Assembly: GCF_006345805.1 (NCBI RefSeq)
Contig: NC_043002.1
Span: forward strand, 8,308,001-8,372,000
Direction: 5' to 3'
Length of the DNA: 64,000 bases
Source of the DNA: Octopus sinensis
Lineage: Eukaryota
Each line of letters starts with the position of its first letter. Positions within the stretch are counted from its first letter, which is position 1. A program made the translations under genes and the position numbers. Positions 15,310 through 63,923 of this stretch are shown here, piece after piece. A model generated the notes under the pieces. It did not search any database and was not told the DNA's origin. It saw nothing but the letters and a program-made list of their open reading frames with translations.

Positions 15310-15351
<42 letters not shown>

Positions 15352-16075
15352 AGAGTAAACACATAAATGTGAAACAAGGTGGAAAAAAGAGTACTCAAAT
15401 ACCAGTGGTAGAGTAATATGCTTTATTTAAAGCAGCAGAAAATTCAACTGCTTTAAATAAAGTATATATATATATATATGCACATGTATACACACACATG
15501 AATAAATATATATAAACATATGTGTATAGACATACATATATAGGTGTATCATTTGATATATACAATTTACAAAAAAAGCTACTAATAGTTACATGCTGAA
15601 GAGATACACTAATTTGGTAAATTTACATAAGGTGCAATGTGTCTCTGAGCATATGGCCTAATGGTAAACATTAAGCCTCAAAGATTGCTTGGGGATATAT
15701 GGCATGTTATACAAATCTGCCAAATTATTGTATCTCTACAGCATGAAACTATTAGTAGCTCTTTTGCAAACTGTGTATATTAAATGATATTTATCTCTCA
15801 CTGGAGATCCTACATCTAATGGAATAGTAAGCAATATATATATATACATATATATATTATATATAGAACTATATATATATATATATACATACATACACAA
15901 ATATATACATACATACACAAATATATACATATATATCCATGCACACACATATACATATAGATATATAAACATATATACACACATATATATACATATATGT
16001 GCATATACATATATATATGTATACACACATACAGCCACACATATATATGTATATATATGTATATATACATATACA

Positions 16076-16439: not shown

Positions 16440-16777
16440 ATATATATATAGATACATATCCATATACAATATATATTAATATAAATATATATAGTACACA
16501 AATACCAGCGGTAGAGTAATATGCTTTCTAAACAAAACTATCAGACACACACACACATATATATATATGCACACATGTATATGCACATAGACATTTACAT
16601 ATATACAGACATATATACAAATATACATTTATATGTACATACATATATACATAGATATATACACACATGCATATATTTATATATATAAGTATATATATGT
16701 ATACCTATACATGCATATACATATGTGTATATATATATATAAATACACACATACACACGCATGAAAAATATGTATAC

Positions 16778-16904: not shown

Positions 16905-17678
16905 AACATATATATATATATATATATATGATGTTAGAAAAAAACAGGCTCTCCTATATTAGGTAACATAGTTGGTAGATTATTATTATAATTATTGATA
17001 ATATAATACTATATAATAGTCTCATGATTGCTAGATTTCATGATTTCATGCCAAATATGGATATTTGAATCTAGCACTCATCACCAATAACTGGATGGAA
17101 TAGCATTATCTGGGCTCATTGTCTCTAAAAACCTCAAAGTATCAAAATGTCCAAGCAATGTCATTCCATTCTACCATTTCTGATGCTTGCAAGATTTGAA
17201 CCCCTTTCTCCAACATGAAACCATTCGCAAGTTTAGCTATCATAACACGATAATGATATACATCTATATATATATAAATAACATACAAATATATATACAT
17301 ATATATTTATATATATAAATATAGAGAAATACGTATACTATGATACATACATCAATGTATAAATATGTATGTATGTAGATTCATACACATATATACACAC
17401 AGACATATGTGTGTGTGTATGTATATGTATATATAATTATAAATATACACATCCATATACTTATATGTATACACATACATGAACTGGAATCGGTTAACTA
17501 ACCAAAACTTTAAGTCACACAGGACTGAATGAAACAGTTTTAAATAATAATAATAATAGTAATAATAATGATAAGTTTTTTGTGTGTATCTATGTACATA
17601 TATATATATATGTTTGCGTGTATGTTCCAAGATTTGACCACAACTGTCTGTCTATATATATATATATATATATACACA

Positions 17679-17817
17679 CAGTTGTGGCCAAATCTTGGAA
17701 CATAGGTCTGAAAATTAGAATTTTTATATTAAATGCTCAAATTATATTTGAACCAAATTGTACTTGGGGATAACAATTTTAATTTTTAAAAATGTTCCAG
17801 ACTTTTGGCCACCGCTG
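17679..17817. mobile_element. Tc1-type MITE (extra inverted TIR at 17622-17647)
   Basis: TIR CAGT(T/G)GTGGCCAAA..TGGAACA, within (TA)n. Confidence 0.7.
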
Positions 17818-18836: not shown

Positions 18837-19297
18837 TTACAGTTCACTTTCTTCAGCGTTAATGTTCGCGATGTTTGTCAGTCCATGCATTGGCGCTAAG
18901 CGTAGTTTGAATTCAGTTGGTTGTCGAGTCTTGCTAAGATCAAGCCACAATCGTGCCGGGTCAGCTTGTTTGGTGGTGGTGGTCGTGGATGAAGGAAAAG
19001 TGATTGCAGATGAAACTTGTGTGTCTATGGATGACGGCTGATCTGAAAGAGCGTGTTTGTTTGCGGCAGTTGATGTTGGTTGTGTTGGTGTCTGTATCGA
19101 TGTTGTTGTTGTTATACTAGTTCCTTCTGAATTTGTCTGCTGGTACGGGCAGGGACTGCTGTTAGTGGAGCTTGCCAACATCCTTGTGTTGACTGGCAGT
19201 GTTGTTGCTGAAGTAGAACCTGTCTGAGCATTCGCAGCGGCAGCAGCAGCAACACAGCCCTCTGTTTCAGGGAAAATGTCTGTACAAATGCCACTTT
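18837..19297 (-). CDS. PLEKHG4: Terminal coding exon ESGICTDIFPETEG...NINAEESEL*
   Basis: T-tract plus cttccAG acceptor, phase 1 in frame, 153 codons to TAA; Ser/Thr/Ala low-complexity sequence. Confidence 0.85.
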
Positions 19298-19411
19298 CTG
19301 GAAGATAGAAAAAAAAAAAAAATTTTAAATACTAGTAACCAATATTTTGGAATGAAGATATAATTATTGATAGCAGTTTATATATAAATACATGTACATA
19401 CATACGTACAT

Positions 19412-19632
19412 TATGACTGCCCCCTCGTTATCGAGTATGGCCATTGCATGAAGCTTAACTGTTACTGGTGCTGTGATCGAATGTGACTTTTTAGCCCAGC
19501 TAAAGATCTACAATGTCTTGTACAAAATTGGCAACTAAAACCTTTACTGGTAATAGCCGGCTGTAGTTGTAACTGGGCTTCATGTACCTTTGCATGTCGT
19601 TTAAGTCCTCCTGCCGAATTACACTATCTTCC
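19412..19632 (-). mobile_element. RTE/BovB-like LINE 3' end with a C2H2 finger
   Basis: CQFCTRHCRSLAGLKSHIRSQHQ* then a short CTCG..CGAG hairpin. Confidence 0.65.
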
Positions 19633-19674
19633 ATATGCATACATAGATACATACATTCATATATATATTCTTTC

Positions 19675-19897
19675 CTTTTATTCTTTTACATGTTTCAGTC
19701 TGTCAAGTGATGTTGGGGTGGGGACAAAAACAGACACACAAACACACATATACACGACAGGCTTCTTTCAGTTTCCATCTACCAAATCCACTCACAATGC
19801 CAAGCCCAAGGCTATAGTAGAAGACACTGGCCCAAGGTGCCACGCAGTGGGATTGAATCCGGAACCAGGTGGTCGGTAAGCAAGTTACTTACCACAC
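19675..19897 (-). mobile_element. SINE family 1, internally deleted copy
   Basis: Reverse complement of head and tail segments. Confidence 0.75.
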
Positions 19898-20644
19898 ATC
19901 CAAGGTGACAACATAAATGCAAAACAAGGTGGAAAAAATAGTATCTGACTACCAAAGGTAGAGTAATATACTTTTAATTAAAGCTGCAAAATTATCACGC
20001 AGCTGTTAATCACAGTTTCATGTTCCTGTTTGTCGGACGGTTTAATGAAAATTGAATTAAGATTGTTCAGGTACATGTAATACATCATCATCATCATCGT
20101 TTAACGTCCGCTTTCCATGCTAGCATGGGTTGGACGAATGACTGAGGGCTGGCGAACCAGATGAAGTGGTAATATAGTGTGATATAATTCAAATATGCAA
20201 ATGAAGCACTCAAATTTGATTATATGTATGTGTGTGGTGGATAGACAGATAAATTGATATTTCATGCATTTGATTTTTTTTTGTTTGACTTCTGTTTTTC
20301 AATGTTAGCAGGGGTCAGGATGAGGAGTCAAGGGAAGATTTTATGATCAGATGTTCCTTCTTTTACCAACTCCCAATTGTTTTCATGAAAAGGATTTTTA
20401 AAATTTATTTCAGAGGTTTCGAAAGTGCAGCGTACTGTCAGCATGGGATGTCAACAATTACCAGCACTTTGCTCAACCAATGAAGTGGTAATATAGTGTG
20501 ATATAATTCAATATCAGTATTCACATACATTCACACATACATATATAAACACAATGTAAATTGAAGGCAATTTAAAAAATTAAAAAATTGTGGGGAAGAG
20601 ACTTGTGAAGTGTCAGATGAAAAGTGAAAGTATATTAGTGCCAA

Positions 20645-20878
20645 AGGCCGCGAGCTGGCGGAAACGTTAGCATGCCGGGCGGAATGCTTAGCGGTATTTC
20701 GTCTGTCGTTACGTTCTGAGTTCAAATTCCGCCGAGGTCGACTTTGCCTTTCATCCTTTCAGGGTCGATTAAATAAATACCAGTTATGCACTGGGGTCGA
20801 TATAATCGACTTAATCCGTTTGTCTGTCCTTGTTTGTCCCCTCTATGTTTAGCCCCTTGTGGGTAGTAAAGAAATATG
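20645..20878 (+). mobile_element. SINE family 2 copy
   Basis: 12-bp TSD TATTAGTGCCAA. Confidence 0.9.
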
Positions 20879-21062
20879 TATTAGTGCCAACAATATTGGC
20901 TTTTGAAGAAAAAGGAAAATATATCAATCTTGAGTAAGGGGGCTCTTTGCATTGAAGCTGTAATTAGAACGGATTGCATGGAACAGAATGACTTGGAAGG
21001 TACCAAATGATTATTCTCTACAGGGAGCTGGAAGTAAAAAAAAAAAAGGAATAACATTTTAC

Positions 21063-21293
21063 CATTTGAAGAATTCATTGACCGTCGATTGAAATGTGGG
21101 CTGTCTGCATTTGCATTGGAACTGAGTATCATGTTTTCAAAGGCTAAATTGAGAGAGTTGAGAAGTCCGTGACTTGTAGATTGACCACTACTTGAGGAAG
21201 ATGTGCTACTTAGAGAGTTGATTGAGAGAGGTCGTTTGGCACCATCTCGGAAGTGGTCAACTGAGGAGACTGCAATGGAATTACGGGAACGTG
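21063..21293 (-). CDS. PLEKHG4: C-terminal exon ARSRNSIAVSSVDH...KRPLS...SSTSSSSS...SMNSSN
   Basis: SIAVSS.DH...KRP..SSTSSSSS resembles the PLEKHG4B tail; long pyrimidine tract plus CAG; 231 nt phase 1/1. Confidence 0.9.
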
Positions 21294-21499
21294 CTGGAAC
21301 AGAAAGAGAGAAAGAGAAATATAGAGAGTTAGAACTTTTTCTTCGATACAACCTAACACACACCACACCACGCAAGTAGACAAACAGATCTATCTCTGCA
21401 TGCATTTTCTTTCCTATGTCGGCACCTCAGTGTAACCAGAACCAAATTTGAAACCAGCATGTGTGTGTTTTAAATTACCAAACTAATACTACATCACAA

Positions 21500-21778
21500 G
21501 GGTTGACGAAATATGGCGGATTGCTCTGACACCGAGTGGTATTAGGGCCACAACCCAGCAGACGGGGCTCTCTGCTGAAAATCCTTGGAGTGTCTGCTTC
21601 GGCAACTGGTGACTCCTCGGTTGTTCTGTCCCTGCGTCTGCGGACAATCTGCGGCAAACAAGACGTCTCCACATGCGGGATTGTTGGAGACCGCTTGTGA
21701 AATGCACATATTCCCACGAAACTTCTTCCATGAGTAGAAGAAGCCCAGGGTGAATGTTGCCACAAGTACAAGTAAGTA
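21500..21778 (+). mobile_element. Probable degenerate RTE 3' end related to 32990
   Basis: Ends CC.GGGTGAATG..GCCACAAGTACAAGTAAGT like the 33200 copy. Confidence 0.45.
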
Positions 21779-22022
21779 GTAAAATAATACAGAATATATA
21801 TTAGGCACAAAACCACAAATCTGTGGGAAAGGAGACAGTCAAATACATTGCCTTTATTTTATCAACTCTAACAGGGTTTCAGCTCAAAACATAAAGATCT
21901 GTAACTGGAAATTGCAAAACATTTGGCAGGTTGCTCTATTACAGGGATTCCCAAACTGAGGTAAATTTACTACCAAGGTGCAAATATCCTAACTTTTTTA
22001 ATATTACTAGGATTTTATAATA

Positions 22023-22530
22023 AAATAATAATAATGAAATTATTGTATACAGTGCTCAGGTGCCCCACAACTTGTCAAAAGTGCATATAAAGCATATGCA
22101 GTAATGTACAAATGTCTGGGAAGTGAACAGTGTATGAGTCAGATACATGCTTCCGTGTGTATGGAGGGGAGAAAATCAGGTGTAGTGTTGGCGAATCTCA
22201 GGAAGCATGGAAGTTTTGAAGGATGCAGTGCTCCGACAACTAACAACTGATGCCGGCAGTTTGTTCCATGCTTCAGCAACTCTTAGCGTGAAAAATTGTT
22301 TCCGAAAGTCATGGAAGGAGCTGTGCTGTTTTCTTACTTTGTAAATATGTCCACGGGTGTTAGATGGGTGGAGTTTGAAAAGGTGCTCAGAGTTATTGCT
22401 TGTAAGATGGTTAATAATTTTATGGGTGTCTGCCAAGTCAGCTGCCAGACATCGGAGTTTCAAAGTGTCCATGCCCAGGGAAGTAAGGCATTCAGAATAT
22501 GGCAAATGCTTGATGGATGGTATTCTCCAT
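22023..22530 (-). mobile_element. CR1-clade LINE 3' end
   Basis: ORF 22176-22505 with CR1 C-terminal motifs. Confidence 0.88.
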
Positions 22531-22713
22531 CTTCTTTCTGGAGTAAAAATATGTGCCAGTTATGTAACAGGATAAATTTAATTAACAATATACACATCCC
22601 CCTTTGTGGCTTTATTACTTTATGCTACCATTTCTACAAACACCTGGCCCTCAAATAAGAATAACATATCAACAAAGGAAGCTATAAGTAGGAATTGTCA
22701 GTAAAAGACTTAC

Positions 22714-22824
22714 CAGCAAATTGTCCAGAAGTGACTAAGTTTTCATTTAAATTATAATCTGCTTTCAGGTCAAAACTTGGCTTACTTCCCATCCCCATTG
22801 AAGCCATCTCAGTTTTTCGGCTTT
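22714..22824 (-). CDS. PLEKHG4: post-PH exon ESRKTEMASMGMGSKPSFDLK...GQFA
   Basis: EMASMG.G.KP motif of the family; 111 nt phase 1/1; ttaacAG and GTAAGT. Confidence 0.92.
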
Positions 22825-23399
22825 CTGTTAAAAATACAACACAAACCATTTTATATACTTTCTTCAAATACATTTTGGGATATGATTTTTTTTCCAAGGT
22901 ATGTCAACACATTCCATTAATAATAACAATAACAAGAGATATTTCTAATACTGGTAAAAGGTAAGAGAAATGGGGAGAAAAGAAGTTAGGTATGATCTTA
23001 TGACAGGTTAAGTGCAAGCTTCTGGAAAAAAATACAATGTTTGAGAGAAAATCATTATAATGGAGTATAATATTTGGGGTAGAATCTTTTGTGTCCAAGT
23101 TTAAAGAAATATCTGTAAAAAGAAAAAATTAACTATACTAAGATGAGTATCAACTGCAAGTCTTAAACCCATATCACTGATAAGTTTAATGCGGTCTTAG
23201 TTAATCTAATTCATGGCTATTTATACTATATATGATTAAGAGTCCATCATCTCTTTAAAGGCCTCTCTTCAAGGCAGGAAGTTTTCTGATGTAATCAAGC
23301 TAAAAGGTAAATTTCTGATAATTAATTATTGTTAAGTGCTGTTACATATTCTTGGAGAAACATCAAATACTTCATCTCCATGTTTTCTTTTTACTCAAT

Positions 23400-23736
23400 C
23401 AATGGAAATTGTAGTAGTGTTATCAGTGCCGATGGCATGTAAAAGAACCATCCGAACGTGGCTGTTGCCAGCACCGCCCCGACTGGCCTCCGTGCCGGTG
23501 ACACATAAAAAGCACCAAGCAATCCTGGCTGTTGCCAGCCTCGCCTAGCACCATGTCAGTGGCACGTAAAAGGCACCCACTACATTCACGGAGTGGTTGG
23601 CATTAGGAAGGGCATCCAGCTGTAGAAACACTGGCAGATCAGACTGGGCCTGGTGCAGCCTCCTGGCTTCCCAGACCCTGGTCGAACCATCCAACCCATG
23701 CTAGCATGGAAAGCGGACGTTAAACGATGATGATGA
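23400..23736 (+). mobile_element. RTE-family 3' UTR copy (subfamily B), ~3 modules
   Basis: Modules, then GTTGGCATTAGGAAGGGCATCC, then GACGTTAAACGATGATG. Confidence 0.8.
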
Positions 23737-23979
23737 ATTGTCAAAAAGAAAATGGATTTTCTTTTGTACATAATTATTTTGATAAGTTAAATTGTGTCTA
23801 GGATGCGTTTGGAAAGTATTCCTTAATTCAATTTGTTGGGTGTTGATTAAGTTTGCAAGGAGGATGAAAAATAAATATTCTGTTTTATCATCATGTTAAG
23901 GTGCGGATTACATTATATTAAAGATTGTGTAGATCCAGAATAAATATGGTGGCTAGTTTGGTTTTGAAAGTAGACTTAC

Positions 23980-24157
23980 CTCGATTCTTTATTGCTTGTC
24001 TCCACAACAATCTAGAAATATCTTGAACCCAGCTTTTTTTGATATCATTATCTTGAGCATGTAAAATATAGTTTTCTCCAAGTGATCGCCGTCGGAACCA
24101 GATTTCAAATTTATTTGTGTGATCACGGAAATTTTCTGTTAATCCAATATCTGAAGT
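23980..24157 (-). CDS. PLEKHG4: PH exon TSDIGLTENF...KFEIWFRRR...KKSWVQDISRLLWRQAIKNR
   Basis: IGLTEN, FEIWFRRR and LLWRQA family motifs; 178 nt phase 0/1; ttgtAG and GTAAGT. Confidence 0.95.
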
Positions 24158-24233
24158 CTACAACAAGAGCAAAAGACAAATAGGTTATTTGACAGACCAG
24201 CTTAGTGCAGGGAATTTAACAGGTTTGTTTTTA

Positions 24234-24472
24234 AAATAATAATGAAATTATTGTATACCGTGCTCAGGTGCACCACAACTTGTCAAAAGTGTGTATAAAG
24301 CATATGCAGTAATGTATAAATGTCTGGAAAGCAAACAGTGTATGCGTCAGATACATGCTTGCGTGTGTATGGAGGGGAGAAAATCAGATGTAGTGTTGGT
24401 GAATCTCAGGAAGCATGGAAGTTTTGAAGGATGCAGTGCTCCAACAACTAAGAACTGATGCCAGCAGTTTGT
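24234..24472 (-). mobile_element. CR1-clade LINE 3' end (short)
   Basis: Family match. Confidence 0.85.
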
Positions 24473-24938
24473 ACCACAAAACACTTGAGCTAAGTGATTC
24501 TCAAACAGTAGCCTCACAACCTACGAAAAATGATGAAATTGTCAGCATCCCTCCTTATCTTTATTAATTAATAAGATTTGTAACCATATAATTCTTGTTT
24601 CCTCCTCAAGTCGTTTGAGAAGTTTAAAAAGAAGGAAATCATCATAATTTTGATAAATATGGCAATTTGTTTATTGCAGGATGGATTCCCTGTGAGAGAC
24701 ACTGCTATCAATTGCTACAATTTTCAATAAACACCAACATCTTAACACTGATTAAACAACGAGCCAATACCAGTTGACCTGCTAGAAATAACCACCTAAA
24801 TCTTTGTATTTTGTATTTCATGTTGTTCATGTTTTATGACGTCTTGTACCCACATATGCATATGTATATACATATATATGTAAGTATGTACATATATGTA
24901 TGTATATATGCATATATAATATATATATATATATATAT

Positions 24939-25347
24939 AGGCGCAGGAGTGGCTGTGTGGTAAGTAGCTTGCTAACCAACCACATGGTTCCGGGTTCAGT
25001 CCCAGTGCGTGGCATCTTGGGCAAGTGTCTTCTGCTATAGCCCCGGGCCGACCAATGCCTTGTGAGTGGATTTGGTAGACGGAAACTGAAAGAAGCCTGT
25101 CGTATATATGTATATATATATATGTATGAGTGTGTTTGTGTGTCTGTGTTTGTTCCCCTAGCATTGCTTGACAACCGATGCTGGTGTGTTTATGTCCCCA
25201 TCACTTAGCGGTTCGGCAAAAGAGACCGATAGAATAAGTACTGGGCTTACAAAAAGAATAAGTCCCAGGGTGGAGTTGCTTGACCAAAGGCGGTGCTCCA
25301 GCATGGCTGCAGTCAAATGACTGAAACAAGTAAAAGAGTAAAAGAGT
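24939..25347 (+). mobile_element. SINE family 1 full-length copy
   Basis: GGCGCAGGAGTGGCTGTGTGG A-box, GGTTCAGTCCC B-box, GTAAAAGA tandem tail, inserted in (TA)n. Confidence 0.9.
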
Positions 25348-25348
25348 G

Positions 25349-25384
<36 letters not shown>

Positions 25385-25885
25385 TATGCATACATACACA
25401 CAGACATATACATAAGGGGGGGCGGAGAGGGAGAGAGGGAGCAGCATAAACTTTTTTTTAAATTCAAACAGCTTGGAATCATCAGTTATTTTACAGACAT
25501 ATTTATTGAAATATTTTCCTGGAGCTAAACTGCATTTATATATCTGCTGAAAATACTATCATTTAAAATTTTGAAACATTTCCACGTATTTTAATTTATT
25601 TAAAGTGTGAAAATCCTTCTTTGTCATTGTCTGTCAAAGAAGATAATTATGACAATTAGTAAATGTGTTAATTCAATCTTGTTTTATTATTAATCCAAGT
25701 CTTTCATGGATGAAATACATTTTCCGATGGATATGTGACTAACCATACCATGTCTTTGCTTGTTATATACTGACAAGGTCTGGAGAAGATGTCTAATCAC
25801 TAAATGGCCAATCGTTCCTTTAAACTAGGCATTGAATTAGCATCTAATGGTTATAGCCACTTTATTTATACCCAGTAGCTCTTAA

Positions 25886-26103
25886 CCCTTTCGTTACTGA
25901 ATTTATTTTGAGATGCTCAGTGTTTCTTCCAATTATGTTAAATATAACAAAGAATTAAGTAAAATAACATCGTTATCATTAAGCTAGAGTTAGGGGACAT
26001 AAATTGTGACTAATTGTGGAAGGTTTTAATTCAGAACTTTTGAAAACCAGACATTTGTACTAAAGAGCTAGAGCCGGTTTCAGCTGGGTTGTTAACGAAA
26101 GGG
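25886..26103. mobile_element. piggyBac-type MITE
   Basis: TTAA|CCCTTTCGTTA...TAACGAAAGGG|TTAA. Confidence 0.85.
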
Positions 26104-26444
26104 TTAATGTAAAACATTTGGCCAGAGGCACCTAGAATGCATTCCTCCATTTCTGCCTTAAAATATGAGCTGCAAAACCTCTGAAATATATACTTTTTTA
26201 CCCTGTTAGCTTTTATTTTAATGTGGAGGGGCTTTTCCTGCTCAAAACTTCAGGAGTCATATTATTTTTTTTATCAATTATTTTATATTTTATTCTTTAT
26301 GTTTAAAAAAAATGTTATAAAACAGAGATGAAAGTAATAAAATAATAAAGACAATTTATAACTAATTTTAAAAAGTTAATGGAAACTTGATATTTAAAAC
26401 AAAAATCATTTTTAAAGATGTATATAAATAAGATATTTTCTTAC

Positions 26445-26618
26445 TTTAAAGCTATATTTATATATATAGGACTCTGGTCCACCATGTCGATCTTTTTTAG
26501 TTTTGCTGAAAAGAACCAATTCTTCAAAAAGAAATATATGCCGCATTGATTTCTTCCTTCCTTGAGTAACAAAAAATTCATTCTGACGTAGAAGGCGACC
26601 TTGTTCTTGTAAATTTAC
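26445..26618 (-). CDS. PLEKHG4: PH exon VNLQEQGRLLRQNEF...RHIFLFEELVLFSK...YIYKYSFK
   Basis: PH motifs; 174 nt phase 0/0; cttcAG and GTAAG. Confidence 0.95.
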
Positions 26619-26835
26619 CTGAAGAAAAAATTTTTTAAAATTAATGATAACAGGAAAAAGAAAAATACTAAAAAAAAACCCCAAACTCTTTCCTATTTAT
26701 TACTAATGATTAAGGTCAATTTAGTCCATAAATGAGTATTGTCAACTGAGCAGGTGCTAGTATGTTACTGGTACTTGTTTTATCATCTTTGGATGAAAAA
26801 AAAACAAACTAAATTGATCTACAATAATTTTATAA

Positions 26836-27338
26836 TAAAAATAATAATGAAATTATTGTATACGGTGCTCAGGTGCACCACAAGTTGTCAAAAGTGTGTA
26901 TAAAGCATATGCAGTAATGTCCAAATGTCTGGAAAGCGAACAGTGCATGAGTCAGATACATGATTGCATGTGTACGGAGGGGAGAAAATCAGGTGTAGTG
27001 TTGGCGAATCTCAGGAAGCATGGAAGTTTTGAAGGATGCAGTGCTCCGACAACTAACAACTGATGCCGGCAGTTTGTTCCATGCTTCAGCAACTCTTAGC
27101 GTGAAAAAAATGTTTCCGAAAGTCATGGGAGCTGTGCTGTTTTCTGAATTTGTAAACATGTCCACGGGTGTTAGACAGGTGGAGTTTGAAAAGGTGCTCA
27201 GAGTTATTGTTTGTAAGATGGTTAATAATTTTATGGGTGTCTGCCAAGTCAGCTGCCAGACGTCGGGGTTTCAATGTGTCCATGCCCAGGGAAGTAAGGC
27301 GTTCAGAATATGGCAAATGCCTGATGTAGGGTATTCTC
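26836..27338 (-). mobile_element. CR1-clade LINE 3' end
   Basis: Family match, ORF 27086-27355. Confidence 0.88.
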
Positions 27339-27572
27339 TTAACTTTAAATACCAAAAGAGGAAAATAATAACTTGGTCCTTAATCTAGCCCTTTCGGTGT
27401 CTTTCACAAAGTCCATTCAGTTGCAAATATTCAAATCAGGTTCCTTGTCTAAGGGTCGATAAATGGATAGGCACTACTTGTTGAATCAATGTTTCAGTTT
27501 GGGTGTCTTTTCTTTCTCACCAGTCAGGTTTGCTGCTCTTCCTCATTTAACTAAACCATTAAATATAATAAA

Positions 27573-27689
27573 GGTTCCAGGTTCAGTCCCACTGCGTGGC
27601 ACCTTGGGCAAGTGTCTTCTACTATAGCCTCGGGCCGACCAAAGCCTTGTGAGTGGATTTGGTAGACGGAAACTGAAAGAAGCCCGTCG

Positions 27690-27724
<35 letters not shown>

Positions 27725-27803
27725 GCTAAGTTACGGGGATGTAAACACACCAGCATCGGTTGTCAAGCGATGTGGGGGGGGGACAAACACAGACACACAA
27801 ACA
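27573..27803 (+). mobile_element. SINE family 1 copy whose 3' segment (27725-27803) is inverted
   Basis: 5' half on +, post-microsatellite segment on -. Confidence 0.75.
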
Positions 27804-28217
27804 TATATATATATATATTTCAATTTATTCTAGCGAAAGGGAAATGAAGAGTAATTTCCCTTACATTTCCCTTGCACCTTTTGTGATCAAGTGGTGTCAA
27901 AATTGCTGAGGTGACAAGGAGGCAGCTTGTCTTCTATCCGGCAGACGTCCATACTTCTCTCCCTTCTGTGGATGTCTGGTTCCCCCAAACAAATGGGATG
28001 CCATTCAGTGCAATACGATCAAGGACAGGCTGGTGCACTGTCTTGACCAGCACTGTCTGGCATGGTTTTCTACTTTGCCTCACAGCCCCAGAACGGTGCC
28101 TGGGCTAAACACAGTGGCATCACTCTTGACTGTCACTTAGCTTAATAGCAACTGTCAGCACATCAGTGTTTCACTAAGGCCTCAAGATCAGTGAACCTTA
28201 CAAATGCTGCTGCTGCT

Positions 28218-28517
28218 TTGTTTGTTTGTTTGTTTGTTGAGCGAAGCGGTCTTCTTCCTGTCTGTAGTGGGAGAAGTCTAAAACGTGGTCCTTTGCTATT
28301 CGTAAGACCCGCAGAAGAGAAAGCAGGTCAACTGAGAGTATCGACGGATGAATGAATGTGCATCCAGGCTCAGCGGTTGCATAGGATGTTGGGGACAAGA
28401 AACAGGAAGAAAGAGTGAGAGAAAGTTGGAGCGAAAGAGTACAACAGGGGTCGCCACCACCCCCTGCCGGAGCCTGGTGGAGCTTTAGGTGTTTTCGCTC
28501 AATAAACACACACAACA
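28218..28517 (-). mobile_element. Probable 5'-truncated SINE of a third family with a (CAAA)n tail
   Basis: GC-rich island ending in (CAAA)n on -; only one copy in the window. Confidence 0.5.
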
Positions 28518-28695
28518 TTAACTTCATGTTCCTAATATTGTACAAAGACTACGTTTTACACCTTCATAAAACAAGACCTGACATATTTGGAGAGTTGAAA
28601 TAAGGTGGAAACTCAATATTTTGGAAAGAAAGAAGTGTAGAAGCAGATGAAAGAAGTTTAGATATTTTCAATGCATTATTTGAGTCTTAACTTAC

Positions 28696-28773
28696 ATCAC
28701 ATTCTTTCAGAGAATCCATAGCCAACAGATCATTGCCATGACGTAGATGGAATTTCACCATTTCTTCAGCAGA
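28696..28773 (-). CDS. PLEKHG4: DH-PH linker exon SAEEMVKFHLRHGNDLLAMDSLKECD
   Basis: LRHGNDLLAMD signature of the PLEKHG4/PLEKHG4B/quattro family; 78 nt; ctttcAG and GTAAG. Confidence 0.95.
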
Positions 28774-29330
28774 CTGAAAGTTAAGAACATTGTCATTTAA
28801 GTTATTTAGATGAATTGATTATGAATTGAGAAAACATTTACACAGTTACAGTCTAAAAAACTGTTTAGCCCTTCTGAATCCATCAATACACTTTGACATG
28901 TGCAGTTTCATTTGACTATATTCCTGGAAGAAACAAAAACCGATTTTGCGTTTATAACAGAAACATTGTGTGGTGTTAGTGGTGTTATGGGCTGTGATGA
29001 GCTATGTGGTGTTGGTGGAGAGGATGGTAGATGAGACTGCAGGGGCCAGTGGAAGAATGAAAGGGGCATGCGTGGGCAGGAAGCACATGTGGGTAGTTTG
29101 AGCTGAGAAGGAAGAGAGGCAAGACGTGTTTAATTCGTGAGAGTGACCGCTGATTCCGCCGAGGTCAACAGGTATTTTCAGTTGTAAATACATATCTACG
29201 TGGCCATCTGCTTTGGTGTCTTCAAAGAGTGTAGTCAAACGAAATCACATTTTCTAAAGTGTACTTGTAGGTTCAAAAGGTTAAGAAGCAACACTTCTGT
29301 TTTCAGTGAAGTGAGAGATATTTGTCAGTT

Positions 29331-29823
29331 TGTGGCCGATGCCAGTACTGCCTGATTGGCACTCATGCCAGTGGAACGTTAGAAGCACCATTCGAGTGTG
29401 ATCATTGCCAGGGCCACTGACTGGCTCCCATGCCGGTGGTACATAAAAAAAGCACCATTCGAACATGGTCATTGCCAGTGCCGCCAGACTGGCTCTTGTG
29501 CAGGTGGCATATAAAAAGCACCATTTGAGCATGGTCGTTGCCAGTGCCGCCAGACTGGCTCTTGTGCAGGTGGCATATAAAAAGCACCATTTAAGCATGG
29601 CCGGTGCCAGTACTGCCTGACTGGCCCTCATGCCAGTGGCACGTAAAAGCACTCACTACACTCTCAGAGTGGTTGGCATTAGGAAGGGCATCCAGCTGTA
29701 GGAACTTTGCCAGATCAGATTGGAGACTGGTGCAACCTTCTGGCTTGTCAGCCCTCAGTCAAACCATCCAACCCATGCTGGCATGGAAAGCGGATGTTAA
29801 ACAATGTTGATGATGATGATGAT
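29331..29823 (+). mobile_element. RTE-family 3' UTR copy with 5 tandem ~66-bp modules
   Basis: Clear periodic array at 29331-29652. Confidence 0.82.
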
Positions 29824-29865
29824 GTAATGATGATTAGTGATGGATATTACTATACTGCTCCCTAC

Positions 29866-30009
29866 CTTCAGATCATTATATTCAGTCTCTGTTTCTGGGC
29901 AAGCTTTTATCATTTGTTTTAGCAACAGAGCATACTTCCCCATTCTTTGAACTGGCCGGAGAAGGTAACTGGACAAATTCATCTTGTCTTTAAGTTCATT
30001 CTGTTTGAT
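29866..30009 (-). CDS. PLEKHG4: DH exon IKQNELKDKMNLSSYLLRPVQRMGKYALLLKQ...YNDLK
   Basis: YLL.PVQRMGKYALLL DH CR3 motif; 144 nt phase 0/0; AAG acceptor (in-frame CAG alternative 9 nt downstream), GTAGG donor. Confidence 0.93.
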
Positions 30010-30132
30010 CTTAAAATAGAAGAAATACAAATAACAGTTAAGCAAAATAAAACATTTTATAAGCAGTTTACCATTCTTATTAAATCTATTTCTTTTGTGA
30101 ACTTGATTTCACAACAATAAATGACAAATGTA

Positions 30133-30366
30133 AAGGCGGTGAGCTGGCAGAAACATTAGCACGCCGGGCGAGATGCATAGCTGTATTTCGACTGCCGTTA
30201 CGTTCTGGGTTCAAATTCTGCCGAGGTCGACTTTGCCTTTCATCCTTTCGGGATGGATAAATTAAGTACCAGTTACGCACTGGGGTCGATGTAATCGACT
30301 TAATCCGTTTGTCTGTCTTTGTTTGTTCCCTCTGTGTTTAGCCCCTTGTGGGTAGTAAAGATATAT
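30133..30366 (+). mobile_element. SINE family 2 copy
   Basis: Family match; flanking repeat AATAAATGACAA. Confidence 0.88.
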
Positions 30367-30711
30367 AAATAAATGACAACAGCAAATTGTTACTGCAACC
30401 AAGTTTCAACCCTGTATCAATCCGCAAATGTTTTTTGCTGTTTCTGTCTCTTTAAGTAATTATAAGTTTATCTCATTAGGGTGATTTATTTTGACTAGAC
30501 ACAGGACAAGATGCTTATAAAAAATTTTTTTAAATTGGGGAAAAAGCTTTTAATAAACAACTAAATTTAAAAATGCAAATGACCTTTATTTATTATCAGC
30601 TGACAAAAAGGAAGAAGAGAACAAACAAACAATAAAAGAAAATGCAATGAACAGTTTAAAAAAATTTTTTAAAACAGAAGAAATATTATCAGGTAAAAAT
30701 GCTAGACTTAC

Positions 30712-30801
30712 TCGAAAAAATTCCGTGCCATGTTCTGCCATTAAATGATCGGATTTTGGTTTGTTTTTGTTGTACAGAGCATAGAGGTAAAAATGTTCTT
30801 C
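30712..30801 (-). CDS. PLEKHG4: DH exon EEHFYLYALYNKNKPKSDHLMAEHGTEFFR
   Basis: 90 nt, phase 0/0, ttctAG acceptor, GTAAGT donor; YALY.KNKP.S motif typical of PLEKHG4-family DH. Confidence 0.95.
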
Positions 30802-31320
30802 CTAGAAGTTAAATGATCAAACAAATTATAAGAACAACAAAAATAATTTTTTTGTTTTTTTTTAATGTATAAATACATATACAAAATATTAAGAGTATAC
30901 ATGTCTACTGGAAATATAGCTGGCCGTCTTACATTTTAAGTAATTCATGGAATTAATTACCTAATTATCACTGACAACCTTAAGCTGACCAATATTTTTT
31001 TTAAAGTTCTGTTTAAAAAAAAACTTGGTAAAATCCAGTTGCTTTAATCAAGTAGACTTAGGATGAAAGACGTTCCAACAAAGACCATCCAGTTTTCTCT
31101 ACAAACATCTATGACTACATTTTCAAATTTCTATTTTGAATCTTTCTGACTTTGTGACACATATCATATGTCAGGTCAATAATACTGGTGTTCTTTATAT
31201 GGAAAGTAAAACAAACAACAACAAAGAAACAAAAAACGAAAACAAAACAAAAATAAAACCAAAGCAAACTGTTTTGAAGTTAAATTTAGAAAGAAAAAAT
31301 GAAAACTATTGTTTATTTTA

Positions 31321-31702
31321 TGCCAGCGTCGCCTTGACTGGCTTCTGTGCCAGTGGCACATGACCTGCTGTGCTTGAGGAGACCTATTGAGTCAAGTACA
31401 TCAACATCAAAATAAATATCAAATGGAAATTGTAGTTGTGATACCTGTGCCAGTGGCACATAAAAAGCACCATCCGAACGTGGCTGATGCCAGCGCCGCC
31501 TTGACTGGCTTCTGTGCCGGTGGCACGTAAAAAGCACCCACTACACTCACAGAGTGGTTGACGTTAGGAAGGGCATCCAGCTGTAGAAACACTGCCAGAT
31601 CAGACTGGAGCCTGGTGCAGCCTCCTGGCTTCCCAGACCCTGGTCGAACCATTCAACCCATGCTAGCACAGAAAACGGACGTTAAACGATGATGATGATG
31701 AT
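31321..31702 (+). mobile_element. RTE-family 3' end (subfamily B) with a possible ORF terminus (AVLEET) and modules
   Basis: Family match. Confidence 0.78.
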
Positions 31703-32989
31703 ATGTGTAAAATTGATATGGATTTCTGAAGATTTAAAAATCCATGGTACATTTAAATACTCCTTGTAGTGCACCAGCAAATTTAGCATACTTCCAAAGT
31801 AGTGTGTATTTTGTAAGGGTCATCTTATAGCATAATAGCTCCTACCCCAACCAAAGCAGTGCATGGCATTTTAAGTATTCATTAACTATACTATAGATTT
31901 TTTTCAAAAGAGAATGTGTTAACCACTCCACAACATCAGTGGATGTTCCAATCCTTTTGATATCAGTGATTTCACCCGGTTGTTACTTAGAGCAGGGTTT
32001 CTCATAGTGTGTGTATGCATGGGATGGTGGATAAATTGTCATGTGTAATAAAATTAAGATGGTTATTTAAAATTTTTAAAACTGGTTCAACATCATTCTG
32101 CTTATTAATTAGGTATGTAACAGTTACTAAAAGAAAGCAATTCTTAAAGGTTTGACTGTCTTGAAATTTTTTTATAAATTCATGTTCCAAGAAATTTCCT
32201 GTAATTTCGATTTCTGAATTTTATTGAATATTTAAATGAAAAGTTTTTCGCAAATTTAAATATTCATTGCATTTACTGCAGCATAGATTTAATAAGCAAT
32301 ATTAATTTGTTGTAGGTGAAATTTTCCATTTATTTGCAACAGTCTCTCACTCTCTCTCGCCTCTATCTTCATTAATGATAATTTAACATATATTCATTTC
32401 AAGTTTTAATTCTCTATTTACAAAACCTACAGTTTATTCTATATATGAAATTTTAAAAAATTATTTATAGAATGAATGAATGCTAGACAAAATAGCTATA
32501 TAACTTTGTGACTTATTTTTGATAAAATGAAAATTGTTTAATTATACACACACACACACACACACATATATAGCTGAAGGATTAAAATTAATCAAAGAAC
32601 ATACTAAGTATGTCTACCTGCTGGGAATAATAGTCAAAACTCTGATTTAGATTGCCAAAATACACTGATAATAACTACAGAAATCAACTGTCGGAAGGCA
32701 AATGGGCCAAGACAATCTCTCAGCATACATTCAAGTATTTGGACCGGTTTCTGGACTGGCATAACATGGAGAGCCCCAACCCATAACATTAAAGTCTGTG
32801 CTGCAACTGATTCATTTTGTACCGAATCATAGCAGCCACCGGTGTGAAAATAGTATATATATTGAAGAAACTTGCCCAAAGTACCGTGCAGTGGGGTTGA
32901 ACCCAGAATCACATGGTTGAGAAGAAAGCATTTTCCACACAGCTACATCTGTGCCTATATTATGAGCTATCTATTTATACATGAGGAAT

Positions 32990-33201
32990 ATTTGAAGGAT
33001 CAGTCAAGGCTGATCTGGAACCCAACCTAGGCCCCCATATCTATGGCGTTCGCCGCATGAATAAGGAATGGTTGGAGATCACGTGGTCGTTAGCCTCAAA
33101 TCGCCAGGTCTGGTCGGCGTTTGTGAGAGATGCAGCATTGAGGATGAATAAAGCCAGCTCAACCCACCCCGGGTGAATGCTGTCAAGTCAGTCAGTCAGT
33201 A
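32990..33201 (+). mobile_element. RTE LINE 3' end with (AGTC)n tail
   Basis: VKADLEPNLGPHIYGVRR..KEWL.....LASNRQVWSAFVRD...SSTHPG*. Confidence 0.75.
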
Positions 33202-33365
33202 TTATTTATACCTACATATGCATTTTGAGGTACTAAGTAAAAGAGTTATTTTCATCAAAAACTGTATTTAAAATTGATAATTAACAAACCTTAATTAGCT
33301 CAACAGACAAATTAATACAACTGAAAAACAGACATAGACCAAACTAAGCTTTACACAGTATGGTA

Positions 33366-33776
33366 TACTCTTTTACTCTTTTACTTGTTTCAGTCATTTG
33401 ACTGCGGCCATGCTGGAGTACCGCCTTTAGTCGAGCAAATTGACCCTGGGACTTATTCTTTGTAAGCCCAGTACTTATTCTATCGGTCTCTTTTGCCGAA
33501 CCGCTAAGTAACGGGGACATAAACACACCAGCATCAGTTGTCAAGCAATGCTAGGGGAACAAACACAGACACACAAACACATACACATACATACATATAT
33601 ATACATATATACGACAGGCTTCTTTCAGTTTCCGTCTACCAAATCCACTCACAAGGCTTTGGTCGGCCCGGGGCTATAGCAGAAGACACTTGCCCAAGGT
33701 GCCACGCAGTGGGATTGAACCCAGAACCATGTGGTTGGTTAGCAAGCTACTTACCACACAGCCACTCCTGCGCCTA
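33366..33776 (-). mobile_element. SINE family 1 full-length copy flanked by a ~95-bp direct repeat
   Basis: Reverse complement of the 24939 copy. Confidence 0.9.
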
Positions 33777-33915
33777 TTTAAACTTGATTTAAACTTGATA
33801 ATTAACAAACCTAATTAGCTCAATAGACAAATTAATACAACTGAAAAACAAACATAAACCAAACTACGCTTTACAAAGAATGGTATGAGATTATAACAGA
33901 AAAAAAATTTCTTAC

Positions 33916-34165
33916 ATGTGAAAGGAAAATTTGAGCAATCTGAAATGGGTAATGTTTGCAAGTCTCCAGTTCTTGCAAGAAATACTGGTTATGGAATTCA
34001 TAGATCTTTTCAATATTACCAAAAATAATACTTCTTTTGCCTCGAAGAGCATGAGGGACTTCCTCCTTGGTTATTTCAGGTATGTAGTTATCGACAATCA
34101 ATTTTAAAGCTTGTACGTAATCTCGTTCAGTGGATATAAGTTCTTGAAGGATAAGAGCCACTGTC
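33916..34165 (-). CDS. PLEKHG4: RhoGEF DH-domain exon TVALILQELISTERDYV...IFGNIEKIYEFH...FLSH
   Basis: Canonical DH motifs ELISTERDY and IFGNIEKIYEFH; ttttacAG acceptor, CAT|GTAAG donor. Confidence 0.95.
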
Positions 34166-34511
34166 CTGTAAAAAGAGAAAACAAAAAAAAAAAGATGAAC
34201 TTTATTCAATACAATCACTTTTAAAATAAAATAAAAAATCTTAAAATTTAGAAACTTTATTTTATTAATTTAAAATATAAATATTTATACTGAACTGTTT
34301 TTACCCCTATAATATTGAAAGAATTGCTTGAGAATCAAACAAAATGCAGAGTGGTTATTTACTCCAGCTCTTCATGTTATGAGTTCAAATCTTACCAAAG
34401 TCTAGATGTTTTTTTTTTTTTGGCATATAAAAAATAAAATGCCACTCGAAATACTGGAATGTAGGCATCACTTTGTGTAGCTGTCATGCCTTCACAGCTT
34501 CATTGCATTAA

Positions 34512-48537: not shown

Positions 48538-48609
48538 CTCCCCGGCGGGGAATCGAACCCCGGTCTCCCGCGTGACAGGCGGGGATACTTACCACTATAC
48601 TACCGAGGA
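48538..48609 (-). tRNA. tRNA-Asp (anticodon GTC), intronic
   Basis: TCCTCGGTAGTATAGTGGTAAGTATCCCCGCCTGTCACGCGGGAGACCGGGGTTCGATTCCCCGCCGGGGAG: 72 nt, full cloverleaf, intact A and B boxes, no encoded CCA. Confidence 0.96.
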
Positions 48610-55416: not shown

Positions 55417-55690
55417 TACTCAAAATAAGCAACAAAGATATCCAAAGTTAGTGTAGTACAATCGTTTCATGCTACTTCATTTAATTAAACAATGTAAGTA
55501 TTGCTCTAAATTTTAAAACTGATGTAATACATTGTTTAATAAAATGAAGTAGCATGAAATGGTTGTACTACACTACCTTGGATATCCTTGTTGCTTATTT
55601 TGATTATAATCACCCCATTTGATTTATATGGATAATACCATACAGAATTCTGGTGACTTTAACTTTAATCTGAATCTAAATTTTTGCTAT
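55417..55690. mobile_element. Fold-back element in (TA)n, family shared with 59792-60045
   Basis: ~77-bp inverted arms plus a shared unique tail. Confidence 0.7.
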
Positions 55691-59791: not shown

Positions 59792-60045
59792 TATAAGCAA
59801 CAAGTATATCCGAGGTAGAGTGGTACAATTGTTTCATGCTACTTCATTTTATTAAACTCTGTAATGTTTACAGTGTTTAATAAAATGAAGTAGCATGAAA
59901 CAATTGTACTACTCTACCTCGGATATACTTGTTGCTTATTTTGATTATAATCACCCCATTGATTTATATGGATAATACCATACAAAATTCTAGTGCCTTT
60001 GACTTAAGTACCATATTCATCTGAATCTAAATTTTGCTGTAATAT
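59792..60045. mobile_element. Fold-back element in (TA)n, second copy
   Basis: Near-perfect ~70-bp hairpin plus the same tail as 55417. Confidence 0.7.
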
Positions 60046-63576: not shown

Positions 63577-63618
<42 letters not shown>

Positions 63619-63620
<2 letters not shown>

Positions 63621-63866
63621 GGAGTAAACACATAAATGTGAAACAAGGTGGAAAAAAGAGTACTCAAATACCAGTGGTAGAGTAATATGATTTATTTAAA
63701 GCAGCAGAAAATTCAACAAAATCTGTTACTCTGAGTTTCTCGTTGAAGTTCATCAGACAGTTTTTGCTAGTTCATCAGACAGTTTTCTAGCAAAAACTGT
63801 CTGATGAACGGCAACGAGAAACTCAGAGTAACAGATTTTGTTGAATTTTCTGCTGCTTTAAATAAA

Positions 63867-63868
<2 letters not shown>
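63619..63868. mobile_element. Fold-back element in (TA)n with hammerhead cores, probable Penelope-like pLTR; relatives at 15350-15462, 16495-16528 and 19908-20060
   Basis: 80-bp near-perfect inverted repeat 63691-63770 / 63787-63866. Confidence 0.7.
63795..63836 (+). ncRNA. Candidate minimal type I hammerhead ribozyme
   Basis: CTGT-CTGATGA-ACG gcaa CGA-GAAA-CT cag AG-TA^-ACAG; stems I, II and III all form; 10.1/11.1 is an A.A mismatch in this copy. Confidence 0.55.

Positions 63869-63923
<55 letters not shown>

What the first reader, a model, noticed from the sequence alone, without database searches (positions are those of the whole stretch)
63691..63866. Palindromic element carrying back-to-back minimal hammerhead ribozymes
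Seen: an 80-bp near-perfect inverted repeat inside (TA)n. The right arm reads CTGT-CTGATGA-ACGgcaaCGA-GAAA-CTcagAG-TA-ACAG, a type I hammerhead with a GUA cleavage triplet. The left arm gives the same core on the minus (host-gene sense) strand with a disrupted stem II, and the 16-bp spacer is a third partial copy. The relative at ~20002-20042 has U at the base of stem II, restoring an A-U pair. Known: Penelope-like elements carry minimal hammerheads in their pLTRs and often end in inverted truncated copies. Inference: this is a young non-autonomous PLE-derived family that could self-cleave or form a long dsRNA hairpin.
Basis: partly seen in the sequence, partly recalled or inferred. Interest (0 to 1): 0.75.

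Follow-up and report, generated by a model that had tools for sequence, protein, structure and literature searches.

The report
Mirror-image stump of Hydra-type retrotransposon
The palindrome and its hammerhead-ribozyme motif are real, but they are two short, head-to-head copies of the end of a young protein-coding Penelope-like jumping gene found thousands of times in this genome, and the copies pile up at one sharp boundary that likely marks the start of the element's RNA, so each stump was likely made by copying the front of that RNA twice.

Summary
Observation largely confirmed; the 'non-autonomous family' reading is not. The unit is 250 bp (63619-63868): a ~71-nt tail, the inverted repeat and a 14-nt templated junction insert. 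It is a truncated, inverted insertion of an autonomous Hydra-clade Penelope-like element (3.3-kb unit, L061/L063) with thousands of copies, in an intron of a puratrophin-1-like gene. The hammerhead is a real homolog (59 sense vs 1 antisense motif beside related ORFs) but atypical (A·A at the base of a 2-bp stem II). In a read-through transcript it would be locked in a -138 kcal/mol hairpin. Cleavage is untested. Family data: 59 of 61 inverted pairs have one long and one short 3' end; 5' ends pile up 40-47 nt upstream of the cleavage site (35 of 76 arms stop there, 2 of 41 in the next 10 nt). (TA)n joins number 118 and 115 in the pile-up, 7 at the cleavage site, 3 upstream. Best reading: twin-primed copying of uncleaved RNA that likely runs off its 5' end. 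The scan noted similar stumps and this idea on other octopus DNA.

The parts
63580..63618 (.). Left (TA)n target
63619..63689 (-). Tail (~71 nt) between the two fixed 3' ends of the family; ends at the long end, inferred RT start site 1
   Evidence: continues towards the ORF in L061
63619..63770 (-). Long arm: element end from -44 (CTAG) through the hammerhead to the long 3' end; sense to the host intron
63723..63760 (-). Hammerhead copy on the long arm; core 63756-63750, GUA 63729-63727; private GG>TT change breaks stem II
63771..63784 (+). 14-nt templated junction insert, a copy of 63749-63762
   Evidence: junction variability
63785..63867 (+). Short arm: element end from -46 (TTCTAG) to the short 3' end (AATAAAG), inferred RT start site 2
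63797..63834 (+). Minimal type I hammerhead motif: stem I CUGU/ACAG, CUGAUGA, A.A + 2-bp stem II with GCAA loop, GAAA, palindromic stem III ACUC-A-GAGU, predicted cut after 63830
63868..63921 (.). Right (TA)n target
15350..15459 (-). Shorter head-to-head stump of the same family (long arm cut below the cleavage site plus an 18-nt short arm), in (TA)n
19905..20043 (-). Older relative (74% identity) with tail and decayed hammerhead core

Best explanation
The 250-bp unit is one short insertion of an autonomous Hydra-clade Penelope-like retrotransposon, made of two head-to-head copies of the element's ribozyme-bearing end, and it was likely made by twin-primed reverse transcription of uncleaved RNA that likely ran off the RNA's 5' end. 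Shown: the parent element (pLTR-ORF-3'UTR-pLTR, period 3345 bp), two fixed 3' ends ~71 nt apart, one of each per inverted pair, (TA)n targets, variable junctions, and a sharp pile-up of 5' ends ending at A(-47) upstream of the GUA site. Inferred: (1) A pLTR promoter starts transcription at the A of CCATT (-47), so the mRNA begins with the hammerhead, then the tail, then the ORF (ATG ~171 nt after the cut site). (2) An RT-EN dimer nicks both strands of (TA)n and starts one cDNA at each of the two internal sites, as shown in vitro for anole PAc. (3) When this happens on the 5' pLTR of the mRNA, the cDNAs end after at most ~84 and ~155 nt and are joined by microhomology with templated inserts. 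Starts on the 3' pLTR give the longer arms. (4) The hammerhead is likely weak and needs a dimer or the protein, and its cut end is rarely what integrates. At this locus the host pre-mRNA would fold a ~80-bp hairpin that hides the ribozyme.
For: Parent: tandem hammerheads at L061:1751 and 5096 flank an RT-EN ORF; L063 has a 723-aa open frame, with 2199 homologs at E<=1e-30 among 7992 scored. Copies: 3584 exact 34-nt core matches and 6749 exact 25-nt 3'-end matches, reversed controls 0. Pairing: of 61 inverted pairs, 59 are long+short and 2 long+unclassified; none is like+like. The short arm reaches further 5' in 21 and the long arm in 15, which one fold-back of one cDNA cannot give. Edge: of 127 arms from the first 43.9 Mb of C1, 35 of 76 stop at -40..-47 and 2 of 41 at -48..-57 (Fisher p=2e-6); after dropping 6 loci with ambiguous junctions, 31 of 72 vs 2 of 41, in long and short arms alike. 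Genome-wide, ends at -47 preceded by a purine number 264 against 29 one base further. (TA)n joins at 2-nt microhomologies: 118 at -47, 115 at -43, 7 at the cut site, 3 at about -74. Promoter hints in relatives: YCAKT within 30 nt upstream of the core in 14 of 41 (null 5.4, p=0.0015); TATAWA at -52..-30 in 9 of 40 (null 3.2, p=0.0015). PAc precedent: two internal RT starts, both strands extended, predicted dimer, uncleaved RNA the main template (PMC11167929).
Against: No transcription start was observed. The extended stem I also ends exactly at A(-47), so the edge has a structural rival. A cap-derived G is not established: G precedes -47 in 58 of the first 100 listed vs 5 of 29 at -48 (p=1e-4), but 18 of 21 inspected G's can come from the opposite arm, and only 1 of the first 100 (TA)n joins shows G. 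The Inr/TATA motifs were chosen after seeing the data, relatives are not independent, 27 of 41 lack the Inr motif, and this family's own TATA-like site is not conserved across subfamilies. Arms of a pair agree at diagnostic sites in 32 of 35, so two separate RNA templates are not shown. The two arms of a pair are not independent counts. The sample mixes loci found with the core pattern and with the 3'-end pattern.
Confidence: 0.62

Rival explanations
1. Same parent element and twin priming, but the 5' edge is structural. Once RT has copied the 5' strand of the ~16-bp extended stem I, the new cDNA snaps back on itself (or RT meets a protein-bound stem) and is released between -30 and -47. The RNA's real start lies further upstream.
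For: The predicted stem runs from A(-47) (AUUC pairing GAAU) through CUGU/ACAG. The stop rate climbs across the stem (0.008 to 0.023 to 0.058 per nt) and falls after it. Some junctions join the two strands of stem I (L125, L136, L150).
Against: It does not explain an initiator-like CCATT sitting on the edge, nor the TATA/Inr excess just upstream of short-stemmed relatives. The fold of this end is no better than shuffles (z=0.25).
Confidence: 0.25
2. The inverted arm arises by self-priming (fold-back) of one cDNA or on an antisense template, as proposed for rotifer Penelopes.
For: Palindromic junctions (CTAG, AATT, GC) are common; arms of a pair usually share subfamily letters (32 of 35); proposed in PMC3846280.
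Against: Either arm may extend further 5' (21 vs 15 pairs). A fold-back from a short-end cDNA cannot supply the tail. 5 of 32 listed single short-truncated arms carry only a stub of the long end.
Confidence: 0.08
3. One reading: a distinct non-autonomous palindromic element (retrozyme-like) that moves as a unit and self-cleaves.
For: The top 30 hits all share the two outer ends and a junction near CTAG (selected for likeness to the query, and two rows show one element).
Against: Junctions differ between copies; arm lengths run continuously up to the full element; there is no diagnostic shared junction; the hairpin blocks the hammerhead; the cut site is not a preferred end (7 vs 115-118).
Confidence: 0.04

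Closest known systems
Hydra-clade C-terminal-EN Penelope-like elements (Craig et al. 2021, PMC8557442), e.g. Hydra-2_Amil, Hydra-1_Obim
   Same: RWK, DKT, CxCx5C, CxxC/CxH motifs, (TA)n targets, 3' hammerhead. The Hydra-2_aMil hammerhead has the same stem I (CUGU/ACAG) and stem III (ACUC-N-GAGU) and is also preceded by CCATT (File S2).
   Different: A different family from Hydra-1_Obim (by eye: unlike hammerhead, clearly diverged protein; no computed alignment). The unit is 3345 bp with a ~1-kb 3' UTR (published Hydra generally <3 kb). Stem II has A.A plus 2 bp instead of G-C or U.U plus 3-7 bp.
PLE insertion unit with inverted 5'-truncated pLTR and one-sided tail (PMC8557442; PMC3846280)
   Same: Head-to-head inverted copy, tail at one end only, palindromic or microhomology junctions.
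   Different: The tail is ~71 nt rather than 30-40. Long/short pairing is near-strict (59 of 61). The sharp 5' edge at -47 was not found described in the passages read.
PAc (Poseidon of Anolis carolinensis) in vitro mechanism (PMC11167929)
   Same: Two internal RT start sites bracketing the tail; AT-rich target; uncleaved RNA as main template fits the scarcity of ends at the cut site.
   Different: Different clade. In PAc the ORF starts inside the hammerhead; here the ATG is ~171 nt past the cut site. The paper's passages read do not address how inverted copies form.
min-HHRs of metazoan PLEs (Cervera and De la Pena 2014, PMC4209133)
   Same: Type I, short stem I, palindromic stem III suited to dimer cleavage (duplex -9.4 kcal/mol), thousands of solo copies from truncated PLEs, including opposite-strand pairs.
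   Different: Lacks the G10.1-C11.1 pair and the long (7-8 bp) helix II. An older subfamily has U4C.
L1 twin priming (passages in PMC11702581)
   Same: An inverted 5' part from a second priming event, joined by microhomology.
   Different: In L1 the two cDNAs cover adjacent parts of the RNA. Here both cover the same stretch from two fixed starts, giving a palindrome.
Animal non-LTR retrozymes (bioRxiv 10.64898/2026.07.22.740005)
   Same: Type I hammerhead of PLE origin, no ORF in the copy.
   Different: Retrozymes are head-to-tail tandem units; this is head-to-head and continuous with an ORF-bearing element.

Membership tests
Hydra-clade PLE (parent element) | Single ORF, RT followed by C-terminal GIY-YIG-type EN | tested here: met
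   723-aa frame with YRDDGL, FLDV and C-terminal VVYRAK..YTG; homolog P0002 carries PF01541. Pfam itself gave no hit on the two ORFs.
Hydra-clade PLE (parent element) | RWK motif and DKG changed to DKT | tested here: met
   RRLRWKAFFF and NSDKTRN in L063 against criteria
Hydra-clade PLE (parent element) | CxCX5C linker; CxxC and CxH around conserved E and N; no CCHH | tested here: met
   CNCKSESSC; CKLCLLEK..LNQRSELMNLCRH, read by eye
Hydra-clade PLE (parent element) | (TA)n insertion preference, pLTR, hammerhead | tested here: met
Hydra-clade PLE (parent element) | Phylogenetic placement with published Hydra RTs | not tested
   Published sequences were seen only as supplement text; no tree built
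Neptune/Nematis PLE | CX2-5CxxC linker and CCHH motif | tested here: not met
   Linker is CxCx5C; my first guess, dropped
Type I minimal hammerhead | Core CUGAnGA..GAAA..UH with paired stem I and palindromic stem III | tested here: met
Type I minimal hammerhead | Conserved at the homologous place in relatives with varied stems | tested here: met
   59 sense vs 1 antisense motif in 87,420 nt flanking 77 related ORFs; 42 distinct motifs with all pair types in stem I, though the descriptor demanded pairing
Type I minimal hammerhead | G10.1-C11.1 (or other pair) at the base of stem II | tested here: not met
   A.A in 53 of 75 fully typed arms; A.G 15, A-U 6, A.C 1, and all 22 of these have U4C. 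Relatives: U.U 18, G-C 12, A.A 1 of 42
Type I minimal hammerhead | Rfam hammerhead model match | tested here: not met
Type I minimal hammerhead | Self-cleavage at GUA | not testable with these tools
   No assay; genomic ends at the cut site are rare
Non-LTR retrozyme / non-autonomous family | Fixed unit, head-to-tail tandems, no continuity with an ORF | tested here: not met

The most novel reading that the evidence does not exclude
The short inverted stumps of Hydra PLEs are double 'strong-stop' products: one RT dimer starts at two fixed sites in the capped 5' leader of the element's mRNA, one per target strand, both cDNAs run off at the transcription start at the foot of the hammerhead, and their ends are joined. 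The genome would then map the element's promoter and RT start sites to the base, and the hammerhead domain would act as an uncut structural leader whose catalytic core is decaying (A.A or U4C in every subfamily).
Probability: 0.45. Interest if true: 0.62.

Novelty: new member of a known kind. Interest (0 to 1): 0.37.

Why it matters
The locus itself is an ordinary transposon stump. The family matters because how PLEs make their inverted pLTR and one-sided tail is stated as open (PMC8557442, passage). This very young family gives base-level predictions: two RT start sites (+37, about +108), one used per strand, and an RNA 5' end at -47. One 5' RACE and one in vitro TPRT series would test them. 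It also offers a natural hammerhead series (A.A; U4C with A-U or A.G) for asking whether PLE ribozymes need to cut. Thousands of short intronic hairpins could be dsRNA substrates in the host (inferred, untested).

Tried and rejected
Rfam: no hammerhead match; the miRNA hits reflect hairpins and (TA)n. Pfam and PDB sequences gave nothing for the ORF. Neptune assignment: rejected on motifs. Apparent 5' ends at the cleavage site: most are alignment artefacts of the stem-I quasi-palindrome; only L103 of 115 arms remained after dropping 6 such loci. Spliced-RNA origin of the edge (TTCTAG|C looks like an acceptor, and D. virilis has an intron ending at helix I): rejected because ends at -44..-47 keep the would-be intron letters; no intron joint was listed. 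Cap-derived G: inconclusive. One search is not a valid control because its pattern excludes the youngest subfamily. (3686 to 1317 across -41..-52) agree with the edge but mix truncation with divergence. Sequencing runs: no RNA holder listed; only contigs could be laid, which show no starts, strand or level, and no piece spans the window's palindrome. A scan of 880 kb of fetched DNA for other hammerhead families returned none with 2 or more copies, so the edge could not be tested in a second family. Not-in-print checks: searches found no paper on this family or on a run-off origin of PLE inversions; subscription papers and Repbase were not searched, and bioRxiv supplements are closed.

Full report
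Observation. The inverted repeat is there: 63691-63770 and 63787-63866 pair at 78 of 80 positions, and 63619-63868 folds at -137.7 kcal/mol, z = -22. The element is longer than reported: it starts at 63619, directly after the left (TA)n, with a one-sided extension of about 71 nt. The spacer is a 14-nt copy of 63749-63762 plus two letters of the right arm. The relative at 20 kb has a damaged core. Rfam scores no hammerhead here. The host is a puratrophin-1-like gene on the minus strand; the nearest protein, labelled Octopus sinensis, matches exons at window 34233-33901 and in L255, so the element is intronic.

The family and its parent. A DNA search gave 835 candidates, of which 40 were scored. 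The 30 best share both outer ends but vary at the junction (rows L008 and L017 show one element). Exact patterns give 3584 core copies and 6749 3' ends, with controls at 0. Unselected loci show the natural upstream sequence and arms of all lengths. L061 is a pLTR-ORF-3'UTR-pLTR tandem of period 3345 with frameshifts; L063 holds a 723-aa open frame lacking only the first codons, capped by an inverted copy. The protein has 2199 relatives at E<=1e-30 among 7992 scored. I first called it Neptune. An earlier scan note (e1-9869566) pointed to Hydra, and the ORF meets the published Hydra criteria: RWK, DKT, CxCx5C, CxxC/CxH, (TA)n. No tree was built. Three subfamilies diverge 0.4% (n=35), 1.3% (n=20, the window's type) and 1.8% (n=29) from their majority over 74 nt.

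Is the hammerhead real? In 87,420 nt flanking 77 related ORFs from metagenome contigs, a descriptor found 59 sense motifs and 1 antisense, mostly ~180-250 nt before the ORF match or in the 3' UTR. L178 and the published Hydra-2_aMil motif share stems I and III with ours. So it is a homolog. It is atypical: the base of stem II is A.A in 53 of 75 typed arms, and the 22 arms with A.G, A-U or A.C all carry U4C. Among 42 distinct relatives, A.A occurs once and U4C once. U4C lowers activity in vitro, and U.U is the best-tolerated mispair at that site (PMC3088659 passages). Metazoan min-HHRs cut weakly and as dimers (PMC4209133), and PAc's needs its protein. At this locus a transcript carries one hammerhead and its antisense; the bare hammerhead fold is -4.0 (plus) or -0.6 (minus) against -137.7/-133.8 for the hairpin. 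Cleavage here is unlikely (inference).

How the stump was made: 3' ends. Arms end either at AATAAAG (+37 from the cut site) or ~71 nt further. Of 61 head-to-head pairs among 170 arms, 59 have one of each, 2 have one long and one unclassified end, and none has two alike. The short arm reaches further 5' in 21 pairs and the long arm in 15; 23 are within 3 nt or both beyond the measured range. 5 of 32 listed single arms carry a stub of the long end. This fits two cDNAs primed from opposite strands at two fixed internal sites, as PAc does in vitro. One fold-back cannot give both directions. Against two separate RNAs: arms agree at diagnostic sites in 32 of 35 pairs.

How the stump was made: 5' ends. 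Among 127 arms from the first 43.9 Mb of C1, the stop rate per nt is about 0.008 from 0 to -29, 0.023 at -30..-39, 0.058 at -40..-47 (35 of 76) and 0.005 at -48..-57 (2 of 41). With 6 ambiguous loci dropped it is 31 of 72 vs 2 of 41. Genome-wide, purine-preceded ends fall from 264 at -47 to 29 at -48. Direct (TA)n joins number 118 at -47, 115 at -43, 7 at the cut site and 3 near -74, so microhomology alone does not explain the peak, and cleaved RNA is not the usual template. The window's arms end at -44 and -46, inside the peak.

What the edge is. A(-47) is the A of CCATT, an initiator-like motif (consensus recalled, from no call). Relatives show YCAKT just upstream of the core in 14 of 41 and TATAWA at -52..-30 in 9 of 40, each p=0.0015 against shuffles; both motifs were picked after the fact and the relatives are not independent. 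D. virilis Penelope has a pLTR promoter (PMC2377424 passages), and TATA/Inr motifs were noted in rotifer pLTRs (PMC3846280 passages). I therefore read the edge as the transcription start, with run-off of cDNAs primed in the 5' pLTR. The rival is structural: the extended stem I also ends at A(-47). The cap-G test, suggested by L1 (PMC11702581 passages), did not settle it. G precedes -47 in 58 of 100 listed (counted by hand) vs 5 of 29, but 18 of 21 inspected G's can come from the other arm, and 1 of 100 listed (TA)n joins has G.

Comparison and verdict. The inverted truncated pLTR, one-sided tail, (TA)n targeting and hammerhead are all described for PLEs. This is a new family of a known clade, not a new kind of element. 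What goes beyond the papers read is the near-strict long/short pairing and the base-sharp 5' edge; searches found no paper stating these. The scan has noted similar stumps on other octopus DNA, and e1-10332739 (seen after my tests) proposes the same double copying of the capped front end; these notes are not independent evidence. Papers seen: PMC4209133 parts 1-2 of 4; PMC11167929 parts 1-2 of 4 and passages; PMC8557442 passages, section 11 and supplement excerpts (File S1 Hydra sheet, File S2, alignment text); bioRxiv 2026.07.22.740005 part 1 of 5 (supplements closed); passages only of PMC3088659, PMC3846280, PMC2377424 and PMC11702581. Interest 0.37.

Noticed in passing
window 15350-15459 and 16493-16527: A second stump of the same family (long arm plus 18-nt short arm, no hammerhead) and a 35-nt tail fragment.
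   Followed up: partly
window 18840-34233 (-), L255-L266: Exons of a puratrophin-1-like (PLEKHG4-type DH-PH RhoGEF) gene; the element sits in a ~43-kb intron.
   Followed up: yes
window 48538-48609 (-): tRNA gene (60 bits), anticodon GUC (Asp) by eye, inside the same intron.
   Followed up: no
window 17622-17703, 55451-55573, 59827-59905: Three other hairpin-shaped inserts that score weakly as miRNA models; not of this family.
   Followed up: no
L152:3398-3900: Copies whose CTAG end is joined to a different, TA-flanked repeat that also occurs alone at L152:4021-4095; possible template switch between two elements.
   Followed up: no
L139:351-3831: Full-length copy preceded by a second long-ended pLTR whose 5' end is 5-8 nt upstream of the cut site.
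   Followed up: no
G000:C25:10544499-10544612; C21:10389047-10389470; C5:83780563-83781327: Head-to-tail runs of edge-truncated ends (periods 43, ~198, ~170-390 nt) seen; possibly retrozyme-like multimers.
   Followed up: no
L008/L017 (G000:C27:3930741-3931280): Two palindromic stumps about 60 bp apart, tail to tail; at least one has arms of different subfamilies.
   Followed up: no
L061:4132-5060: About 1 kb of AT-rich 3' UTR, long for a Hydra element.
   Followed up: no
L180, L221: Two metagenome loci carry a second, different hammerhead-like motif besides the pLTR one.
   Followed up: no
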